A stretch of DNA of 64,000 nt from Bacilli bacterium (GCA_017435255.1 JAFSFI010000010.1:103219-167218), one strand, 5' to 3'; counted from the first letter of the stretch, positions 1,033 to 8,150 are shown. Notes: generated by a model from the sequence alone, not told the origin. Program-made: numbers and translations.

Positions 1033-1935
1033 ATGAACGAGTTTAGTTATAGAATAACAAAAGAAGTATATAATTGGATTATTAATGGAACTAAGAATGT
1101 TGAGATAAGGCTTTATAATGAAAAATCTAGTAGGATAAAAATTAATGATGTTATAAATTTCAAAGTTTTAGATGATGAAGAAAAAAATATAAAAGTTGTA
1201 GTTAAGGATTTGTTTATATATAATGATATAAAATCGTTATTAAAAGACATATCAATTACTAATATTGCTCCTGTTGAAGAAGAAAAACTATGTGATATGC
1301 TAAATGATATTTTTGGTGAAGAGAAAGTTAAAAATCAGAGAATCATTGGAATAAAGTTTGCGATAGCTAGTGATAAAGAAGAAGATGTTTTAATAGATTT
1401 GGATATTGATAAAGACCCTTACGTCAAGCAAATAACAGATGATAAAATCATTAATTTGACTGGTCAAAGTGGTTCTGGAAAGTCATATTATGTTAAACAA
1501 AAATTTAATAATAGTGATTATTTAGTAGTTGATACTGATGACATATTAAACGAAAAAAGATTTTTAAAATCATCTGGTATTAATAGAAAACTTGGTGAGA
1601 TATTTAGAAAAAAATATGAAACATTACCAACTTTGGGAGATAATTTTGACTTAATTTATAAAGAAATTTTAGAATATTGTAAAGATTTGGGGAAAACAAT
1701 TGTTATAGATTGTGCAACATTTCATTGTATAAAAGATATTAATTTATTAAAGGGTAAAGTAATAGTTTTAAGAACATCCATTAAAACTTGTTATGATAGG
1801 TGCATTGAAAGATTTAAAAAGGAAAATCCTAATTATACAGAAGTAGAACTAAATGCCTACGCTGAACGCAAAAAGAAAATATTTATATGGTACAAATATT
1901 CAAATGAATTTATAAAAAAACTTAATAAATTATAA
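1033..1935 (+). CDS. ASCH-domain / P-loop kinase fusion protein
   Basis: N-terminal ~110 aa resemble the ASCH/PUA-like fold (YqfB-like; GTKNVEIR...GD-like beta-barrel pattern). C-terminal Walker A GQSGSGKS followed by DTDD. Start is 2 nt after the ABC gene stop (translational coupling). A perfect palindromic terminator follows at 1939-1962. Confidence 0.5.
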   Translation: MNEFSYRITKEVYNWIINGTKNVEIRLYNEKSSRIKINDVINFKVLDDEEKNIKVVVKDLFIYNDIKSLLKDISITNIAPVEEEKLCDMLNDIFGEEKVKNQRIIGIKFAIASDKEEDVLIDLDIDKDPYVKQITDDKIINLTGQSGSGKSYYVKQKFNNSDYLVVDTDDILNEKRFLKSSGINRKLGEIFRKKYETLPTLGDNFDLIYKEILEYCKDLGKTIVIDCATFHCIKDINLLKGKVIVLRTSIKTCYDRCIERFKKENPNYTEVELNAYAERKKKIFIWYKYSNEFIKKLNKL

Positions 1936-1938
1936 AGT

Positions 1939-1962
1939 AAGACTTATGCATAAGTCTTTTTC
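1939..1962 (+). terminator. rho-independent terminator (perfect palindrome aagacttatgcataagtctt + T-run)
   Basis: 20-nt perfect inverted repeat followed by ttttt immediately after the stop of 1033..1935. Confidence 0.7.
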
Positions 1963-1999
1963 TCTTATTTTTACATAGAATCTAATAGAGGTGTTTATT

Positions 2000-2917
2000 A
2001 TGTTAAGTGAGGAATCTTTTGTATTACAAACTTTAAATAGCGGATTATATTTTTTAAGAACCATTAGAGATTTTGCAATTAATATTCAACTTTCTTTTTT
2101 GGAAAATAATAGTGAATATATCAGTACTGCTAAAGATTTTGGAGATAGAGCTGAAGAGCTGATTGGCGACTTAATGGTATATGCGAATGAAAATGTTACA
2201 AAAGAAGCATTGAATAATCAGATTTTTGTAACCGCTTATACATTAGATACAGAACTACTAACAGAAAAATTATTTTTTATTGATATAGATACTACAATTA
2301 CAGAGGAGCAATCTAAGTTAGCAGCAGGTTTTACGCAAAATCCATCTCAAACTATTATTGATGAATTAATGAGAGTTAATAAAAGTGCATTGACATTAGT
2401 AACAAACTTTATTAGTTTCTGTGAAAATATTATTGCTAGAATGAGCAACAATGATTTGTTTTCATACTCTTATATTTCTTTAATAGAAGCTATGATGACA
2501 GAAGCAAATTTATATAAGTTAAATTTAGAAAGGCTTAGTGCCGGAAATAATATTGATCCCTCTTTTAAGGCGGATTATGAATATTTATTTAATAACTTGC
2601 TTCAACGATACGCGTCGTTTGTCAGAGGTTTTGTTGACCCTAAAAACGCAGAGGTAATATTAAGAGCAGGTGCTTTCTCTAGCGAGTTTGGATTAATTGC
2701 TAGTGAATACAAAAATGCAATAGTAAATCCTAATGTAGCTGAGGAATTAAAAGTGCGAAGTATAGATACTATAGACAGGTTTAGAGATTTTTTATCAGAA
2801 GTTATAGAAGATTTATTAGACTCGAAAACATATTTTATAGTAGAGCCAATTTTATTAGATAATATTTTAACTACTGCAAATTATTTTAAATATACTTTGT
2901 TGGCTACTTCATATTAA
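2000..2917 (+). CDS. hypothetical protein (helical; possibly a Firmicutes-restricted DUF with an internal two-fold repeat)
   Basis: ORF with RBS gaggtg 7 nt upstream of ATG 2000 (the six-frame GTG start at 1991 is too close to the RBS). Own terminator hairpin at 2916-2950. No recognisable catalytic motif. Confidence 0.5.
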   Translation: MLSEESFVLQTLNSGLYFLRTIRDFAINIQLSFLENNSEYISTAKDFGDRAEELIGDLMVYANENVTKEALNNQIFVTAYTLDTELLTEKLFFIDIDTTITEEQSKLAAGFTQNPSQTIIDELMRVNKSALTLVTNFISFCENIIARMSNNDLFSYSYISLIEAMMTEANLYKLNLERLSAGNNIDPSFKADYEYLFNNLLQRYASFVRGFVDPKNAEVILRAGAFSSEFGLIASEYKNAIVNPNVAEELKVRSIDTIDRFRDFLSEVIEDLLDSKTYFIVEPILLDNILTTANYFKYTLLATSY

Positions 2918-2950
2918 AGGAGTTCATGCTCCTTTTTGTTTTGATTTTTT
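2916..2950 (+). terminator. rho-independent terminator
   Basis: aaaggag-ttcatg-ctccttt stem-loop followed by a T-rich run. Confidence 0.6.
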
Positions 2951-3006
2951 CTTTTTAATACATTATTTGTTGTAAAAATATGATATACTATTTGAGGTTG
3001 GGTGAT

Positions 3007-3654
3007 ATGATGAAAAATAAAGATAGATCAGGTAATAAAAATTTAAAATGGATTATAGCAATTACATTGTTTTTTCTGTTTTTAATAATTGTAGTTAATA
3101 TATATAAAGATAATATAGCTGGGTTTGATGACTTTTTTTATAAACAAATATCTTTGCTAATTTCTGATAAAATGACTTCTTTTGTTAAAATTATAACTAA
3201 TTTTGGAAGTGCAATATCACTTATATCCATAACACTGTTAACTATGTTGTTATTTAAAAATAAAAGATATGGGATTTTAACTATGATTAATTTAGTAGTT
3301 ATATTTTTATTTAACTTGTTTTTAAAATCCGTTTTTGCTAGACCCAGACCCATAGACATAAATATAATAGAGGAGAATGGTTATAGTTTTCCGTCTGCTC
3401 ACTCTATGGTTTCAACTGCTTTTTATGGATTTATAATTTATTTAATAACGAAGTCAAATATAGATAAAAAACAAAAATTAATATATTCGCTTGTATTAGG
3501 TTTATTAATTATTCTTATATGCATTACTAGAGTTTATCTAGGGGTTCATTATATGAGCGATGTCTTAGGGGGATTATTAATAGCAATACCATATTTAATT
3601 TTGTTTACAACCTTAATAGATAAATATTTACCAAATAAAAAAAGTTCTAAATAG
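3007..3654 (+). CDS. PAP2-family membrane phosphatase (undecaprenyl-diphosphatase / PgpB-like)
   Basis: PAP2 motifs KSVFARPRP, SFPSAHS and TRVYLGVHYMSDV, in a polytopic membrane protein. Alternative start at 2980. Confidence 0.8.
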   Translation: MMKNKDRSGNKNLKWIIAITLFFLFLIIVVNIYKDNIAGFDDFFYKQISLLISDKMTSFVKIITNFGSAISLISITLLTMLLFKNKRYGILTMINLVVIFLFNLFLKSVFARPRPIDINIIEENGYSFPSAHSMVSTAFYGFIIYLITKSNIDKKQKLIYSLVLGLLIILICITRVYLGVHYMSDVLGGLLIAIPYLILFTTLIDKYLPNKKSSK

Positions 3655-3663
3655 AACTTTTTT
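3637..3663. terminator. bidirectional terminator hairpin shared by convergent genes
   Basis: aaaaagttcta-aa-tagaactttttt. The palindrome is flanked by A-run and T-run and contains the stop codons of both convergent genes (PAP2 on + and the AAA ATPase on -). Confidence 0.6.
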
Positions 3664-5155
3664 GTTTTGTTGCTGATATGGCGTGTTCTTTACCCCATGC
3701 ACGAATTTTTTCAATCTTTTCGGGATTTGTTTTTGAAAGAGATACTGTTTTACTAAATGTATCAACAAATATATTTTGAGTTAATTGAATGTTGTTAGCA
3801 ACTACTTGATAAGCTATTTCTCTAATACAAGATTCAATATCAGAACCTGCAAATCCTTTAGATAATTCTACTAATTGGTTTATAAAATCATCACCAACTT
3901 TAACATTTAAGTATTTTGCTAAATATAATTTTATTATTTCCGCACGTTCTACTTCGGATGGTAAATCCACAAAGAACATTTCATCAAATCTACCTTTACG
4001 AAGAAGCTCAGCAGGTAAGTTATTTATATCATTGGCAGTAGCTACAACGAAAACCTCTTTTTTACATTCTTGTAACCAGAAAAGAAATTGTCCAATCATA
4101 CGATTAGTAACCCCGGAGTCACCACTAGCGCCTGATAATCCTTTTTCAATTTCATCGATCCATAAGATACAAGGAGACACATATTCTGCTGTTTCTAAAG
4201 CCTCTTTTAATTGTTGTTCACTTTGGCCAACGTATCTTCCTTGTACAGTTGCAAAGTCTAATAAATATAGGGGCATTTGCCATTTTGCTGCAATAGCTTT
4301 AGCAGATAAACTTTTTCCACACCCAGGAACACCTACAATTAGTATTCCTCTAGGTGGTTTAATACCCCTTGCCATCATTTGTTCTTTTTTATCTGGTGCT
4401 AGTAATTTTTTCTTTTCATCTAACCATTCTTTTAAGTTTTCTAATCCTCCAAATGCAATAGTAGGATCAACATCAATTTTTTCTAGTCCACTAATATCAG
4501 AGAACATACTATCTTTGGCAAATTTTAAATCAACTAAATCTTCTTTAAGTAAAGAACCTTTTGCTATTAAAGAAGAAATAACATTTCTAACCTCTATTTC
4601 GCTCAAACCAAGCAAAATAGTAGCGGCTTCTTTAAAATTGTTATCATCCCATTCAACGGTTATTTGTCCTTGATAAGGAGCAGCAACATTTTTGATTAAT
4701 GTATATAATTCTTTTTCATCTGGTAATGCAAGCTCTACATTCATTCCCAAACGCTGTAGATTTGTCCAAATAGGAGATGATGTAATAACTATTATTGTTC
4801 CCCCTTTTTCTTCCGCAATTGTAACTATATCGTTTAAATAACGGGATACTAGACTTTCTGTACCAAGTTCAGATGCATCTGTTAATACAAATGTAGCATT
4901 TTCTTTAACCTTTATTTGTTCACCAATATAATCAAGCACACCCATGATATTTTTTTCATCGCTAACTAAATCATTAGTAACAATATCGGTAACTCCTTTT
5001 GACATAGAGTGAACATGAATAGGTAGATTTAATTCGCTAGACAACTCTTTTAAAACATCAATAGCTCTACTTTTTTCTATTGTATTAATTGATATAAATG
5101 GTATCCTTGCTAGTAGGTATTGTCTTAACAAGGTTTTTGTTTCTTCATAATTCAT
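3647..5155 (-). CDS. classical-clade AAA+ ATPase (FtsH/CDC48/Vps4-like ATPase module) with ~250-aa N-terminal alpha/beta domain lacking a P-loop
   Basis: Walker A GVPGCGKSLSAKAIA, Walker B ILWIDEIE, second region of homology VVATANDINNLPAELLRKGRFDEMFFVDLP. Last gene of an overlapping four-gene operon. Confidence 0.85.
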   Translation of the reverse strand: MNYEETKTLLRQYLLARIPFISINTIEKSRAIDVLKELSSELNLPIHVHSMSKGVTDIVTNDLVSDEKNIMGVLDYIGEQIKVKENATFVLTDASELGTESLVSRYLNDIVTIAEEKGGTIIVITSSPIWTNLQRLGMNVELALPDEKELYTLIKNVAAPYQGQITVEWDDNNFKEAATILLGLSEIEVRNVISSLIAKGSLLKEDLVDLKFAKDSMFSDISGLEKIDVDPTIAFGGLENLKEWLDEKKKLLAPDKKEQMMARGIKPPRGILIVGVPGCGKSLSAKAIAAKWQMPLYLLDFATVQGRYVGQSEQQLKEALETAEYVSPCILWIDEIEKGLSGASGDSGVTNRMIGQFLFWLQECKKEVFVVATANDINNLPAELLRKGRFDEMFFVDLPSEVERAEIIKLYLAKYLNVKVGDDFINQLVELSKGFAGSDIESCIREIAYQVVANNIQLTQNIFVDTFSKTVSLSKTNPEKIEKIRAWGKEHAISATKQKSSI

Positions 5156-5156
5156 A

Positions 5157-5600
5157 TTAATCCTCCAATATATTAATTTTACTATTTTTTATCATTATTA
5201 TAGCTTCGCCGGTAGTATCGAATCCGGTAAGACTTTTTTCTAACGCCTCATTAATTTCATCAGCGAATCTTTGTAATGTTTCTTTAAACTTTTTTTTGTT
5301 TTCTTCTGGAATTGATGGTAAATTAATTATTTTTTTAGCAAATGCAATTTCTTTTTTAATATTAATAACTTCTAAAGATAAAGAGTTTAAATCGTTATAA
5401 ATTGTACTCATTTTTAATAAGATGCCATCTAAGGCATTTTTTAATCTAGTTCTTATTACATCATTTATATGAATAATAAATCGATATAATATATTCCCAA
5501 CAAGTTCAATATTGTTATTATATAAAGTATCTAATAGTGAATCGTTTCTTGGCCCGGTTTTAAGTTGTTCTAAACTTTCAACCCAATCGTAATAAGTCAT
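5157..5600 (-). CDS. hypothetical helical protein (147 aa), operon partner of the AAA ATPase
   Basis: Its stop is 1 nt from the AAA gene start, and its ATG overlaps the stop of the upstream 69-aa gene (ATGA-type overlap). No known motif. Confidence 0.6.
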   Translation of the reverse strand: MTYYDWVESLEQLKTGPRNDSLLDTLYNNNIELVGNILYRFIIHINDVIRTRLKNALDGILLKMSTIYNDLNSLSLEVINIKKEIAFAKKIINLPSIPEENKKKFKETLQRFADEINEALEKSLTGFDTTGEAIIMIKNSKINILED

Positions 5601-5806
5601 TTTCTGCTCACTCTCCTTATTATTTCATATGGTGGAGTAAGATCCCATGAAGGAAGCCCCGTAACAAAATCTTCTGTTGTTTGTGCGTCTATTTTTACAT
5701 CTTTAATTTCTTTTGTTTCGGTTTCTAATGGGATAATGTTTTCTTCATTATTGATAAATTCAAAGGTGTTTGTATTTTGATTATTATCCATATTATTTAC
5801 CTCCAT
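5597..5806 (-). CDS. hypothetical small acidic protein (69 aa) with C-terminal GLPSWDLTPPYEIIRR motif
   Basis: Overlaps the upstream gene by 14 nt and the downstream gene by 4 nt. Polar, Asn/Glu-rich N-terminus. Confidence 0.5.
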   Translation of the reverse strand: MEVNNMDNNQNTNTFEFINNEENIIPLETETKEIKDVKIDAQTTEDFVTGLPSWDLTPPYEIIRRVSRK

Positions 5807-7526
5807 TTACAATTATATTTCTTGATGCATTATTATCTATATATTGTTCATAGTTTAATGAATTAACATAATTAATAAAGTTATCCCTATCTTTTTCGCT
5901 ATTTTTATATATGAAGTAATAATCTACTATTTCTGCCATTATATTTGTTAATAGTGTTTTATGTTGTTTTTTGATTTCATTTAATTGCTTAACCTTAGTT
6001 TCTCTTTTAGAATATGCCCTTAAGAATTCTACAACATTATATATTAGTACGGCACAGAAGATAACTGCTGCTAGTATTGGCTGTTTTAGTGTTAAGAATA
6101 TTCCAATTAAACCTAATACTATAGCAACTAACATTTTAATATTAAATAAATGAACACCATATACTTCATCATAGAATTTATCATCTAGGTAGCTTTCAAG
6201 ATTTTTCTGTAATTCTGATTCATTATTTCCGGTTTTTGTAAGTCCATTCCATTCATTTATTGTTATGTTTAAATCTGGTAGCATTTCACTTGATTTAACA
6301 CTTGAAATCCTTGTATATCCTTCAACAATCGAATCTTTTGAAAGTGCAATAGCTAGTTTTTTTGTATTTAGTTCAGCATTAACGGTACCATTAGCAATAG
6401 CTATATTTGTTATGTGGTTATAGAAATTATTCTCGTTTTCTAAAGCAATACTTGTTTTTTCAAATTCTTGCAACGCCTTAACCATATCTCCATTTTCGTC
6501 GATTATATGTTTATTTTTTTGTATATCTCTTTTTAATTGCAATTCTTCTTTGTCGTAATTGAACACTAACATATGCAATAAATTATCTATTTTGTTTATA
6601 GAAGAAGTTCTGGTATGATGTTCTTCGTTTATAATTTTTCTAAAGTCTTTTAAGACAGTTTTTTGTGCTTGAGCAGATGCGATAACATCCACAACATTAT
6701 CTTTTTCTTGAACATATTTAATAATATATGGATATTCGTCTTTATCTACTTCTTCAATTTGCTCTCTAAAATATCTTTCCCATCTATCTATTTGAGTCTT
6801 TTTTATTTCTCCATAACCATTTAGTTCTGTCATCCAAGAATTAACTTTTTCTAAACAGTTTTTCTTGGCTTCAATACCAAACACACCACTAGTAATAGCA
6901 TCTAATACAGTAATTATTTTACTTTCCATTTTGGTAGGATCTTGCATAGATAAGTATCTATTTAACCATTTCATAGCAGTTTCATTTCTATTTGCTCTTA
7001 GATGAACTAAACAGAAAAGTAGGGATGTTTTCTCATCGTCTCTAGACATAGCTTCTTTCAACGCGTTTTCTGCTAAAGGTTTGTTATCTGTGTACCAAGC
7101 ACAAAGACTAACTAGTGCTGGTGCTAACCAATAATCAGGAGTGTTTATAATTGTCTCTTCACTAATATTTTCTACTGTACTTTTTTTAATTGCATTTATA
7201 TCAATAGATTGTAGTAAACCATTAACTCTTCTTCTTACTTCATCGCGATGACCATATTTTTTTGTGTATTCTGACTCTGCCATTAAAATAGTTTGTCTAG
7301 CATTAGAAACAACAGTACCTTGTTTTATTTCTAACATGAATGCTTTGATTTCTTCTTCCAAACTTTTAACATCGTTTTTAACCGTATTAACTTGTCCTTG
7401 AACATCATTTATATGACCATTAACTGTATTTACGTTTTGAGATACTGTACCTATATTATTGGCCAGTACTTGTAAATTGTTTTCTAAAGTAGATAAATTG
7501 GCAGCACTAATTGCTACAGCACTCAT
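5793..7526 (-). CDS. hypothetical 577-aa protein: N-terminal coiled coil with N/V/Q heptad-like repeats, central helical domain, two C-proximal TM helices
   Basis: N-terminal stretch NNIGTVSQNVNTVNGHINDVQGQVNTVKNDV is a repetitive coiled-coil pattern. Hydrophobic segment MLVAIVLGLIGIFLTLKQPILAAVIFCAVLIYNVV gives 2 TM helices. First gene of the operon. Confidence 0.6.
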   Translation of the reverse strand: MSAVAISAANLSTLENNLQVLANNIGTVSQNVNTVNGHINDVQGQVNTVKNDVKSLEEEIKAFMLEIKQGTVVSNARQTILMAESEYTKKYGHRDEVRRRVNGLLQSIDINAIKKSTVENISEETIINTPDYWLAPALVSLCAWYTDNKPLAENALKEAMSRDDEKTSLLFCLVHLRANRNETAMKWLNRYLSMQDPTKMESKIITVLDAITSGVFGIEAKKNCLEKVNSWMTELNGYGEIKKTQIDRWERYFREQIEEVDKDEYPYIIKYVQEKDNVVDVIASAQAQKTVLKDFRKIINEEHHTRTSSINKIDNLLHMLVFNYDKEELQLKRDIQKNKHIIDENGDMVKALQEFEKTSIALENENNFYNHITNIAIANGTVNAELNTKKLAIALSKDSIVEGYTRISSVKSSEMLPDLNITINEWNGLTKTGNNESELQKNLESYLDDKFYDEVYGVHLFNIKMLVAIVLGLIGIFLTLKQPILAAVIFCAVLIYNVVEFLRAYSKRETKVKQLNEIKKQHKTLLTNIMAEIVDYYFIYKNSEKDRDNFINYVNSLNYEQYIDNNASRNIIVNGGK

Positions 7527-7598
7527 ACAAACACCTTCCTATTCTATATAGATTATATCATAATAATTTTAAAAACAAAATAAAAAAGAACCGAAGTT

Positions 7599-8150
7599 CT
7601 AATTATTTTGTGAGTAATAAATGTATCCAATAATTTCTACAACAGAATAAACCATAATACATAATCCGATCATCTGAAACACAAGATTAGTACTTAGGAT
7701 CATGTATATTCCACCTAGAATCATTATACTTGATAAAATTATTAATATCTTAGATGAGTTAGCTTTTGATTTAACACCCTTAATAGAATTTATAAGTAAA
7801 TGAACTCCATTAAATAATATCCAAGCCCCCATAATGATTCTTATTAACACTTCTACTGTTCCGGAAAACACAAGTAAGATAATTCCTGCAACAAAAGCTG
7901 TAATACCAATGCATAAATCTTTAAAGTGTGTTTCTTTCTCTTTTTTCTTTCTAATATAAAATACAATTGTTTTAAATGTACCAATAATAGTAAATCCACT
8001 ACCTAGCACATATGCGATTAACTTTATAGTACCATTAGGATTAGTAAAAATAATACTTCCTATTATAAAAAAGAAAATTGCACTAATTAAACTAGTGATG
8101 TTAGAGTAACCTTTTTCCCTAAATTTGTCTAAGTTCATAACTACCTCCAA
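7599..8150 (-). CDS. DUF308/HdeD-like small membrane protein
   Basis: 183 aa with 6 predicted TM helices and repeated glycine-containing helices typical of the HdeD/DUF308 family. Confidence 0.5.
   Translation of the reverse strand: MEVVMNLDKFREKGYSNITSLISAIFFFIIGSIIFTNPNGTIKLIAYVLGSGFTIIGTFKTIVFYIRKKKEKETHFKDLCIGITAFVAGIILLVFSGTVEVLIRIIMGAWILFNGVHLLINSIKGVKSKANSSKILIILSSIMILGGIYMILSTNLVFQMIGLCIMVYSVVEIIGYIYYSQNN

What the first reader, a model, noticed from the sequence alone, without database searches (positions are those of the whole stretch)
3647..7526. Tightly overlapping four-gene operon: coiled-coil/2-TM protein + 69-aa + 147-aa proteins + classical AAA+ ATPase with degenerate N-domain (candidate undescribed module)
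Four minus-strand genes (5793..7526, 5597..5806, 5157..5600, 3647..5155) are joined by 14-nt, 4-nt and 1-nt overlaps or gaps, so they are almost certainly co-translated as one unit. The last gene is a classical-clade AAA+ ATPase: Walker A GVPGCGKS, Walker B, and an intact second region of homology. This is the FtsH/CDC48/Vps4/katanin class, which usually acts as a protein-remodelling motor. Its ~250-aa N-terminal alpha/beta domain looks like a decayed ATPase domain. The first gene encodes a 577-aa protein with a distinctive N/V/Q-periodic coiled coil at the N-terminus and two TM helices near the C-terminus. The two small proteins carry no motif I recognise; the 69-aa one ends in GLPSWDLTPPYEIIRR. 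I cannot map the ensemble to FtsH, SpoVK, ARC, CBASS Cap6/HORMA, Zorya, gas-vesicle GvpN or T7SS EccA architectures. The flanks are unrelated housekeeping genes (PAP2 phosphatase, HdeD-like protein, fhs), which argues for a self-contained accessory module. A membrane-associated remodelling or defence-type machine is plausible.
Basis: partly seen in the sequence, partly recalled or inferred. Interest (0 to 1): 0.75.

Follow-up and report, generated by a model that had tools for sequence, protein, structure and literature searches.

The report
Uncharacterised membrane-tethered AAA+ ATPase operon
This is a real, tightly coupled four-gene operon (five genes in most other bacteria) that pairs a Ycf46-type AAA+ protein-remodelling motor with a membrane-anchored scaffold and two small partners; it is conserved across several bacterial phyla, sometimes carried on plasmids and a phage satellite, and none of the partner proteins has a described function.

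Summary
The four minus-strand genes exist, are translationally coupled, and have their own promoter-like and terminator-like signals. One correction: the small gene most likely starts at 5791, giving 64 aa.

The genes co-occur in the same order in 59 of 61 informative loci. These span uncultured Bacilli, Clostridia, Enterococcus, Streptococcus, Veillonella, Selenomonas, Brachyspira, Fusobacterium, Stenotrophomonas, Cupriavidus and acetic acid bacteria.

D is a classical AAA+ ATPase. All catalytic and pore-loop motifs are invariant, and the N-terminal domain is a P-loop-less AAA-like domain. UniRef names orthologues 'ycf46'. A is a coiled-coil plus TPR-like protein anchored by a transmembrane hairpin. 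B is an acidic, variable protein whose C-terminal peptide (LPxWDLxPPxxxxRRxxR) is conserved across phyla. C is a confident helical bundle. Outside this Bacilli clade a fifth gene (E, about 159 aa, invariant Cys/His/His/Glu) belongs to the module.

A, B, C and E match nothing in Pfam, NCBIfam, PADLOC, PHROGs or PDB.

Best reading: an AAA+ machine that remodels a membrane-anchored A/B/C complex. Its biological role is unresolved. Mobile-element carriage points to a conflict system. Stable synteny next to fhs in this lineage points to a physiological role.

Verdict: undescribed, moderately interesting.

The parts
5793..7526 (-). Gene A, 577 aa: membrane-anchored scaffold with an N-terminal coiled coil, a TPR-like helical domain, a TM hairpin and a C-terminal helix.
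7209..7505 (-). A, aa 8-106: N/V/Q-rich coiled coil, the likely oligomerisation element.
   Evidence: Helices 8-34 and 41-106 in the model, with low confidence for aa 1-50. Only sub-threshold similarity to trimeric coiled coils such as Lpp, sigma-1 and fibritin.
6627..7184 (-). A, aa about 115-300: TPR-like helical repeat domain carrying the most conserved motifs (PDYWLAPALV..W, RDDEKTSLLF).
6012..6155 (-). A, aa 458-505: two hydrophobic helices separated by a short loop (LKQP), forming a TM hairpin. A K/R-rich segment follows.
   Evidence: Kyte-Doolittle window above 1.8 over aa 455-487 and the sequence itself. Helices 463-478 and 483-556 in the model. Both termini cytoplasmic is an inference from the positive-inside rule.
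5597..5791 (-). Gene B, 64 aa (69 aa if started at 5806): acidic, variable N-terminal part plus a conserved C-terminal peptide.
   Evidence: SD GGAGGT lies 7 nt before ATG 5791. Family found in 60 loci by HMM, plus Brachyspira by eye. N-terminal part has net charge -9. Some homologues carry zinc ribbons in the N-terminal part.
5600..5665 (-). B C-terminal motif VTGLPSWDLTPPYEIIRRVSRK. Family consensus: [LF]PxW[DNS][LIV]xPPxxxx[RK]R[VRK]xR.
   Evidence: Conserved from Bacilli MAGs to Stenotrophomonas and Cupriavidus while the rest of the protein is not alignable.
5157..5600 (-). Gene C, 147 aa: stand-alone helical bundle.
3647..5155 (-). Gene D, 502 aa: Ycf46-type classical AAA+ ATPase.
   Evidence: PF00004 at 3.8e-28. 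Full-length match to phrog_8638 at 1.6e-87. p97, NSF and VAT D2 domains are the best PDB sequence matches. UniRef names orthologues 'AAA domain-containing protein ycf46'.
4460..5155 (-). D, aa 1-232: conserved AAA-like domain without a P-loop, the probable partner- or substrate-docking domain.
   Evidence: hhalign aligns aa 113-186 to positions 129-205 of the AAA-domain sub-alignment, i.e. about residues 361-437 (beta4, sensor-1, SRH, start of lid), pairwise E 0.0016. There is no GxxGxGK; A16, P19, E27 and R30 are invariant. Mean identity 51% across phyla.
3650..4459 (-). D, aa 233-502: active AAA module plus lid.
   Evidence: Walker A, pore loop 1 (YVG), Walker B, sensor-1 and both Arg fingers are invariant or nearly so in 62 sequences. 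Mean identity 64%.
7532..7560 (-). Promoter-like extended -10 (TGaTATAAT, 7560-7552) and SD AGGAAGGTG (7540-7532) upstream of A.
   Evidence: Read from the sequence. This is a consensus match only and was not tested.
7571..7600 (-). Weak terminator-like hairpin (AGAAC-UUCG-GUUCU followed by a U tract) directly after the upstream DUF308 gene. It separates that gene from the operon.
   Evidence: Read from the sequence. It falls below the scan's G+C criterion.
3638..3663 (.). Perfect 11-bp inverted repeat (AAAAAAGTTCT-ATTT-AGAACTTTTTT) spanning the D stop codon and the end of the convergent PAP2 gene. It looks like a bidirectional terminator.
   Evidence: Read from the sequence.

Best explanation
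The operon encodes a self-contained, membrane-tethered AAA+ remodelling machine. I propose that D forms a hexamer, as classical AAA+ ATPases do. D has an active classical AAA module with an intact Tyr-Val-Gly pore loop, preceded by a conserved AAA-like domain without a P-loop that serves as a docking platform. I propose that D uses ATP to pull on, and so assemble, disassemble or reset, a complex formed by its three co-translated partners at the cytoplasmic face of the membrane.

The proposed partners are:
- A, anchored by a transmembrane hairpin and oligomerised through its N-terminal coiled coil, presenting a TPR-like peptide-binding domain.
- B, a disordered acidic polypeptide whose invariant proline/tryptophan/arginine C-terminal peptide is the docking element, either for the TPR groove of A or for the N-domain of D. 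Its free N-terminal part would be the natural entry point for threading.
- C, a compact helical bundle acting as a subunit or adaptor.

Shown here: gene structure, translational coupling, strict co-occurrence and order, motif conservation, predicted folds, and absence from known family libraries.

Inferred: who binds whom, and the direction of the reaction.

The biological role is that of an accessory module. In this Bacilli lineage I favour a membrane or protein-homeostasis (stress) function. A conflict or defence role is the main alternative.
For: - Coupling and own signals.
- Co-occurrence: A-B-C-D order in 56 of 56 loci where all four were detected, and C plus D present in 59 of 61 loci with enough sequence. 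Starting from D instead of A gives the same neighbourhood.
- D is catalytically intact and under strong constraint: 46-65% identity across phyla, motifs invariant or nearly so.
- The D N-domain is AAA-derived but lacks a P-loop.
- A has a TM hairpin and a TPR-like domain.
- The B tail is the only conserved part of B in all phyla.
- C is a confident helical bundle.
- Stable synteny next to fhs through a whole clade, with fhs 57-80% identical, argues for a maintained cellular function here.
Against:
- C resembles only generic bundles.
- There is no sequence or profile similarity of A or C to PspA/ESCRT-III. The precedent is therefore an analogy, not homology.
- The role of the fifth gene E, present in all other lineages, is not explained, and this genome lacks it.
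- The stress-type role has no direct support, since no expression or phenotype data exist.
Confidence: 0.5

Rival explanations
1. An undescribed anti-phage or anti-mobile-element defence system of the abortive-infection type. A is a membrane-disrupting effector held in check or triggered by the AAA+ ATPase D. B, with its variable N-terminal part that is sometimes a zinc ribbon, is the sensor or decoy.
For: - The module occupies the accessory 3' end of Streptococcus satellite phage Javan368. That is where satellites carry accessory genes, which occasionally confer phage resistance (PMC13376191).
- It sits on 26-38 kb Komagataeibacter plasmids between IS elements.
- It lies next to T4SS genes in L001 and next to two large serine recombinases in L076.
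- Its distribution across phyla is very patchy.
- A is duplicated in L043, and the N-terminal part of B is hypervariable.
- The best PADLOC match of D is the Iet defence ATPase.
- Many truncated D copies occur in S. oralis.
Against: - A, B, C and E hit no PADLOC model, even in their proteobacterial and satellite versions.
- 143 flanking genes from 30 loci are mostly housekeeping, with only scattered defence hits.
- Only 2 of 2.9 million viral contigs carry the module.
- In this lineage the locus is vertically inherited next to fhs.
- D is unusually conserved for a defence gene.
- The IetA match covers only the generic AAA domain, and no protease partner is present.
Confidence: 0.28
2. A divergent member of the ESCRT-III/PspA-Vps4 type of membrane repair system, with A or C being a cryptic ESCRT-III-fold protein polymer that D disassembles.
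For: - ATPases of the same two-domain architecture are found next to PspA and a TM-Snf7 in other bacteria.
- A starts with long helices and is membrane-bound.
- CdvC/Vps4 models give partial hits to D.
Against: - No PspA_IM30 or Snf7 hit for the window's A (all hits to E 0.1 shown), and none among the 25 most frequently matched of 70 sub-threshold families for 20 diverse A proteins or of 40 for 20 C proteins.
- D has no MIT domain.
- The CdvC score is 87 bits against a cut-off of 650.
Confidence: 0.07
3. An accessory chaperone of a secretion or conjugation apparatus, comparable to the T7SS ATPase EccA (TPR plus AAA) or to TPR-type T3SS chaperones.
For: - In L001 and L002 the module follows a T4SS coupling protein. 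In L002 it also lies near WXG100 and FtsK/SpoIIIE (EssC-like) genes.
- TPR plus AAA is the EccA domain combination.
Against: - Secretion genes are absent from the window and from most loci.
- The TPR-like domain is on a separate membrane protein rather than fused to the ATPase.
- D is CDC48/NSF-like by sequence, not CbbX-like.
Confidence: 0.05
4. Four unrelated genes that merely lie side by side, with the small ORFs possibly not real genes.
For: B and C have no known domains, and B is short and of low complexity.
Against: - Order and presence are conserved across at least five phyla.
- The B tail motif is conserved.
- The C model is highly confident.
- Each start has a Shine-Dalgarno site inside the preceding gene.
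Confidence: 0.01

Closest known systems
Ycf46-family AAA+ ATPases (cyanobacteria, plastids, many bacteria): the 'inactive classical AAA + classical AAA' proteins of Ravi, Aravind and colleagues (PMC11237479)
   Same: - About 500 aa, with a degenerate N-terminal AAA-like domain followed by one active classical AAA module.
- UniRef names D orthologues from this very operon type 'AAA domain-containing protein ycf46', and JGI names them 'SpoVK/Ycf46/Vps4 family'.
- The architecture has been reported next to membrane-associated helical proteins.
   Different: - The partners here (A, B, C, E) are not PspA or Snf7 and have not been described.
- Cyanobacterial ycf46 lies in a three-gene operon whose partners I could not compare.
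- No direct alignment to a cyanobacterial Ycf46 was made.
Vps4/CdvC with ESCRT-III (and bacterial PspA/Vipp1)
   Same: The likely working principle is shared: a classical AAA+ hexamer that remodels a membrane-bound helical protein assembly and recognises partners through short C-terminal peptides (MIM motifs in ESCRT-III; the LPxWDLxPP..RR tail of B is a candidate counterpart).
   Different: - D has no MIT domain.
- No ESCRT-III or PspA homology was detected in A or C.
- A is an integral membrane protein with a TPR-like domain.
CDC48/p97/VAT and NSF (type II AAA+)
   Same: They are the best sequence matches of the active domain, at E about 1e-55 to 1e-59 to D2 domains. They also have two stacked AAA-type domains, one of which may be catalytically weak, and they use adaptor proteins with short binding motifs.
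   Different: - D is much shorter.
- Its first AAA-like domain has lost the P-loop altogether.
- It has no double-psi barrel N-domain.
- The TIGR01243 score is 118 bits against a cut-off of 803.
IetAS (Gao_Iet) anti-phage system
   Same: IetA models are the best PADLOC match of D (2.5e-31). Both are mobile, AAA+-based modules.
   Different: - The match covers only aa 255-489, the generic AAA domain.
- The NCBIfam IteA score is 80.5 bits against a cut-off of 510.
- There is no IetS-like subtilisin protease.
- The partner proteins are different.
EccA of type VII secretion
   Same: It combines TPR repeats with an AAA+ ATPase.
   Different: In EccA the TPR is fused to a CbbX-type ATPase and the protein is soluble. 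Here the TPR-like domain belongs to a separate membrane protein and the ATPase is CDC48/NSF-like.

Membership tests
Classical-clade AAA+ ATPase (PF00004) | Walker A, Walker B, sensor-1, second region of homology with Arg fingers, aromatic-hydrophobic-Gly pore loop | tested here: met
   PF00004 at 3.8e-28. GVPGCGKS, DE334-335, N375, R386/R389 and Y308-V-G310 are invariant or nearly so in 62 homologues.
Ycf46-type AAA+ (inactive AAA + active AAA, about 500 aa) | N-terminal degenerate AAA-like domain followed by a single active classical AAA module | tested here: met
   hhalign of N-domain against AAA domain: aa 113-186 aligns to sub-alignment positions 129-205 (about residues 361-437), E 0.0016. 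The N-domain has no P-loop. The length is 496-542 aa in nearly all homologues; longer values (571, 613) reflect longest-ORF start calls.
Ycf46-type AAA+ (inactive AAA + active AAA, about 500 aa) | Orthology or close sequence relationship to cyanobacterial or plastid Ycf46 | tested here: inconclusive
   Only indirect evidence: UniRef names orthologues from Komagataeibacter, Acetobacter and S. oralis operons 'ycf46'. No Ycf46 sequence was available to align.
IetAS defence system | IetA ATPase passing the family threshold | tested here: not met
   The PADLOC hit covers aa 255-489 only. NCBIfam IteA_antiphage scores 80.5 bits against a cut-off of 510.
IetAS defence system | Adjacent IetS subtilisin-like protease | tested here: not met
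   No peptidase domain in A, B or C or in the flanks.
Vps4/CdvC-ESCRT-III | N-terminal MIT domain on the ATPase | tested here: not met
   The N-domain is AAA-like. CdvC scores 86.9 bits against a cut-off of 650, and only over aa 237-454.
Vps4/CdvC-ESCRT-III or PspA | Partner with Snf7 or PspA_IM30 domain (ESCRT-III fold) | tested here: not met
FtsH | N-terminal TM helices and C-terminal M41 zinc protease domain | tested here: not met
   D ends after the AAA lid and has no TM segment. FtsH_fam scores 92 bits against a cut-off of 600.
CBASS type III TRIP13/HORMA | TRIP13-type ATPase with HORMA partner | tested here: not met
   The TRIP13 PADLOC hit has E 0.0078 over aa 271-294 only. C is all-alpha, and no cyclase is present.
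T7SS EccA | TPR domain fused N-terminally to a CbbX-like AAA domain, within an ESX/T7SS locus | tested here: not met
   The TPR-like domain is in the separate membrane protein A. D is closest to p97/NSF D2. The window has no T7SS genes.
SpoVK (sporulation AAA+) | SpoVK-type ATPase restricted to endospore formers | tested here: not met
   No SpoVK model among the NCBIfam hits. The operon occurs in Stenotrophomonas, Cupriavidus, Brachyspira and Streptococcus.
Anti-phage defence system (generic) | Protection against phage on expression; enrichment in defence islands | tested here: inconclusive
   Protection cannot be tested with these tools. A rough neighbourhood survey of 143 genes from 30 loci shows mostly housekeeping genes and a few defence hits. 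The module does occur on a satellite, plasmids and an ICE.

The most novel reading that the evidence does not exclude
The A-B-C-D(-E) module is a previously unrecognised, horizontally mobile, AAA+-powered membrane machine. It would be a new family of conflict (anti-phage or abortive-infection) systems. Its partner proteins also reveal what Ycf46-type ATPases, an orphan family conserved in cyanobacteria and plastids, act on: membrane-anchored TPR/coiled-coil scaffolds recognised through a short C-terminal peptide.
Probability: 0.25. Interest if true: 0.75.

Novelty: new variant of a known kind. Interest (0 to 1): 0.55.

Why it matters
Four protein families (A, B, C and the fifth gene E) have no annotation in Pfam, NCBIfam, PADLOC, PHROGs or the PDB. 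Yet they are strictly linked to a highly conserved AAA+ motor across several phyla (Bacillota, Pseudomonadota, Spirochaetota, Fusobacteriota and others) and travel on plasmids, an ICE and a phage satellite.

This gives a concrete set of candidate partners and substrates for the Ycf46-type ATPases, whose function has stayed obscure. It also offers a simple, testable system: a trap mutant, deletion of the B tail, and mutations in the TPR groove of A.

If the module proves to be a defence system, it adds a new membrane-linked mechanism. If it is a stress system, it is a bacterial analogue of AAA+-driven membrane-complex remodelling that does not use ESCRT-III.

Tried and rejected
- Profile libraries. 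Pfam, NCBIfam, PADLOC and PHROGs were scanned with all four proteins. The family sets were covered only partly: diverse A, C and E sets against Pfam, and proteobacterial/satellite copies of A, B, C and E against PADLOC. Only the AAA domain of D and the full-length phrog_8638 (unknown function) matched.
- PDB by sequence, using single sequences for A and D and profiles for A, C and E: nothing for A, C or E beyond coiled-coil or three-helix noise.
- ESCRT-III/PspA idea: rejected for lack of any profile signal.
- C as a duplicated piece of A: rejected.
E could therefore not be modelled.
- Defence-island test through flanking genes: inconclusive.
- Phage association: only Javan368 and 2 IMG/VR contigs. 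Other phage hits to D, such as the mycobacteriophage Corndog-type AAA ATPase, are distant (30% identity) and lack the partners.
- Literature searches on PspA/Snf7 partners, Ycf46, satellites and AAA+/TM/coiled-coil defence found no description of this operon.
- Search for E in the window: absent.

Full report
**1. The observation**

The window (28% G+C) carries four consecutive minus-strand ORFs at exactly the reported coordinates:
- A: 5793..7526, 577 aa.
- B: 5597..5806, 69 aa as listed.
- C: 5157..5600, 147 aa.
- D: 3647..5155, 502 aa.

Reading the junctions gives the following.
- A ends with TAA at 5795-5793.
- A perfect Shine-Dalgarno GGAGGT (5804-5799) lies 7 nt before an in-frame ATG at 5791, whereas the ATG at 5806 has no such site. 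B therefore most likely starts at 5791 (64 aa). That agrees with the 54-65 aa of most homologues.
- B and C overlap by ATGA.
- C and D are separated by one base, with GGAGGA 5 nt upstream of the D start.

Upstream of A there is a weak hairpin plus U-tract right after the DUF308 gene, an extended -10 element (TGaTATAAT, 7560-7552) and a strong SD. A perfect 11-bp inverted repeat spans the D stop codon and the end of the convergent PAP2 gene. These signals are consensus matches only. The automatic scan found no more promoter-like sites than in shuffled sequence.

**2. The four genes belong together**

A search with A returned 159 full-length, domain-less homologues.

A scan of one genome per species found 63 loci. 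They lie in uncultured Bacilli, Clostridium, Ruminiclostridium, Lachnospiraceae, Enterococcus, Sporolactobacillus, Veillonella, Selenomonas, Brachyspira, Stenotrophomonas, Cupriavidus and a Chitinispirillia MAG. tblastn added Streptococcus, Fusobacterium, Comamonas and Komagataeibacter.

Using blastp and iterated HMMs on the ORFs of these loci:
- C and D follow A in 59 of 61 loci that have at least 2.6 kb downstream.
- The stop-codon order is A<B<C<D in 56 of 56 loci where all four were detected.
- The two exceptions are one MAG lineage in which an IS110 transposase follows an orphan A.
- The Brachyspira B proteins were missed by the HMM but are visible by eye.

Starting from D rather than A, two arbitrarily chosen relatives (61% and 67% identical) have the same A-B-C-D context.

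**3. A fifth gene elsewhere**

In all lineages outside the Bacilli-MAG clade, a gene for a protein of about 159 aa (E) lies directly before A or after D. It is present in 37 loci (alignment).

E has invariant Cys, two His, Glu and Tyr residues. It has no Pfam, PADLOC or PDB match. It is absent from the whole 64-kb window and from the flanks of the related MAGs. The window therefore holds a reduced four-gene form.

**4. The parts**

*D.* D is a classical AAA+ ATPase.
- PF00004 matches at 3.8e-28.
- The best solved relatives are the D2 domains of NSF, VAT and p97.
- The sub-threshold NCBIfam hits are CDC48, PAN, FtsH and CdvC.
- Walker A, the Tyr-Val-Gly pore loop, Walker B, sensor-1 and both arginine fingers are invariant or nearly so (98-100%; pore-loop Val 84%) in 62 homologues. 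The enzyme should therefore translocate polypeptide.
- The first 232 residues have no P-loop but are well conserved (51% mean identity).
- A profile-profile comparison aligns aa 113-186 with the beta4/sensor-1/SRH/lid segment of the active domain, with pairwise E 0.0016.
- The whole protein matches phrog_8638, of unknown function.
- UniRef calls orthologues from Komagataeibacter, Acetobacter and S. oralis operons 'AAA domain-containing protein ycf46'.

*A.* A was modelled at pLDDT 79.
- It has long N-terminal helices (aa 8-106, low confidence at the very start).
- It has further helices, a hydrophobic hairpin at aa 458-505 and a long C-terminal helix.
- The most conserved motifs lie in the TPR-like part.

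*B.* B has an acidic, unalignable N-terminal part, in some lineages with one or two zinc ribbons or long low-complexity inserts. Its C-terminal peptide is conserved from Bacilli to Proteobacteria: [LF]PxW[DNS][LIV]xPPxxxx[RK]R[VRK]xR.

*C.* C gave a very confident model (pLDDT 95.5, pTM 0.88) of a six-helix bundle. It resembles only generic helical bundles. Its family comprises 172 cluster representatives, all stand-alone (140-224 aa when full length, plus shorter fragments).

**5. What it is not**

A, B, C and E match no model in Pfam, NCBIfam, PADLOC or PHROGs (E was scanned only against Pfam and PADLOC) and no PDB sequence. This holds even when diverse family members are scanned.
- The PADLOC IetA hits of D cover only the generic AAA domain, the NCBIfam IteA score is far below threshold, and there is no IetS protease.
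- D has no MIT domain.
- A and C show no PspA/Snf7 signal: no such hit for the window's proteins, none among the top 25 Pfam families listed for the diverse sets, and hhalign probability 0.1% against PspA (the PspA sequence was recalled from memory, so this is a weak test).
- FtsH, TRIP13/HORMA, EccA and SpoVK fail on architecture or distribution (see the membership table).

All sources name A, B, C and E 'hypothetical protein'. Five literature searches found no description of the operon.

The nearest statement in print comes from the PSP survey (PMC11237479). [quoted passage not shown]

**6. Genomic setting**

Two signals pull in different directions.

Mobility:
- The module fills the accessory 3' end of the 14-kb Streptococcus satellite phage Javan368.
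- It lies between IS elements on 26-38 kb Komagataeibacter plasmids.
- It follows T4SS genes in L001.
- It abuts two large serine recombinases in an IMG/VR contig.
- Its distribution is very patchy.

Stability:
- In the clade to which the window belongs the module always lies next to fhs. This holds over species whose fhs is only 57-80% identical and whose A is 43-76% identical.
- D is as conserved as fhs.
- A crude survey of 143 flanking genes from 30 loci shows mostly housekeeping functions, with a few defence-type hits.
- Only 2 of 2.9 million viral contigs carry A.

**7. Most likely mechanism**

The following is inference, built on established knowledge of classical AAA+ unfoldases and TPR domains.
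- D hexamers are recruited to the cytoplasmic face of the membrane by A. A is anchored by its TM hairpin and oligomerised by its coiled coil.
- The conserved C-terminal peptide of B is the docking element. TPR domains typically bind short extended peptides, and AAA+ N-domains bind adaptor motifs.
- The disordered acidic N-terminal part of B is a natural substrate-entry segment for the pore loops.
- C is a further subunit or adaptor.
- ATP hydrolysis remodels or resets the complex.

I put about 0.5 on this general mechanism. On the biological role I split the probability. I give somewhat more weight to a membrane or protein-homeostasis function in this lineage, and about 0.28 to an undescribed defence or abortive-infection system. 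Small probabilities go to a cryptic ESCRT-III-like system and to a secretion chaperone.

**8. Verdict**

It is a new combination of uncharacterised partner families around a known kind of motor, so I rate it 'new variant of a known kind'. Interest is moderate (0.55). The module is conserved, mobile, experimentally tractable and linked to the orphan Ycf46 family. No unusual chemistry or mechanism has been demonstrated, and conserved operons of unknown function are not rare.

Noticed in passing
L067:11202-11681, L069:6525-7001, L070:13775-14257, L071:1106-1576 (absent from the window): A fifth module gene (E, about 159 aa) lies directly before A or after D in 37 loci from all lineages except the window's Bacilli-MAG clade. 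It has an invariant basic N-terminal motif (L..R...RS..Y) and invariant Cys, His, His, Glu and Tyr, which suggests a metal site or a hydrolase. It has no Pfam, PADLOC or PDB match.
   Followed up: partly
window 5791-5806: The listed start of B (ATG 5806) has no ribosome-binding site. The in-frame ATG at 5791 is preceded by GGAGGT at ideal spacing and lies 1 nt after the A stop codon. The real protein is therefore probably 64 aa, and the '14-nt overlap' is probably a 1-nt gap.
   Followed up: yes
L005:7001-11037, L006, L023: In one MAG lineage A is intact, but B, C and D are missing. An unrelated 313-aa membrane or secreted protein and an IS110 transposase follow it. This looks like an IS-mediated break-up of the operon that left an orphan A.
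   Followed up: partly
L043:6950-13537: A Clostridia MAG has two A paralogues in one operon, in the order A-B-E-A'-C-D. Its B carries a long Pro/Ala-rich repeat (APRAE x8).
   Followed up: no
L044:11178-12149, L045:10590-12668: Lachnospiraceae versions carry an extra gene between D and E. It encodes an acidic, coiled-coil protein with a 'GTCGPTSVANS ... SDHWITV ... VDSGGG' segment that looks like a papain-type Cys/His peptidase. It has no Pfam match.
   Followed up: partly
cluster of L070:12050-13627 (S. oralis D): The 90%-identity cluster of the S. oralis ATPase contains many 171-172 aa members seen on up to 119 contigs. This suggests a frequent truncation or frameshift of D in oral streptococci.
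   Followed up: no
window 3638-3663: A perfect 11-bp inverted repeat (AAAAAAGTTCT / AGAACTTTTTT) with a 4-nt loop spans the 8-nt convergent overlap of D (stop at 3647-3649) and the PAP2 gene (ends at 3654). It is a likely bidirectional terminator.
   Followed up: partly
window 1033-1935 and 1991-2917: A 300-aa protein appears to fuse an N-terminal ASCH-like domain to a P-loop kinase-like domain. All Pfam hits are below threshold. It is followed by a DUF2935 protein. Both seem unrelated to the operon.
   Followed up: no
L075:14257-15801 and 1824-5674: In a high-GC IMG/VR contig the module is surrounded by several proteins that begin with zinc-ribbon motifs (CxxC...CPKCG) and by a J-domain protein. 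This echoes the zinc ribbons seen in some B proteins.
   Followed up: no
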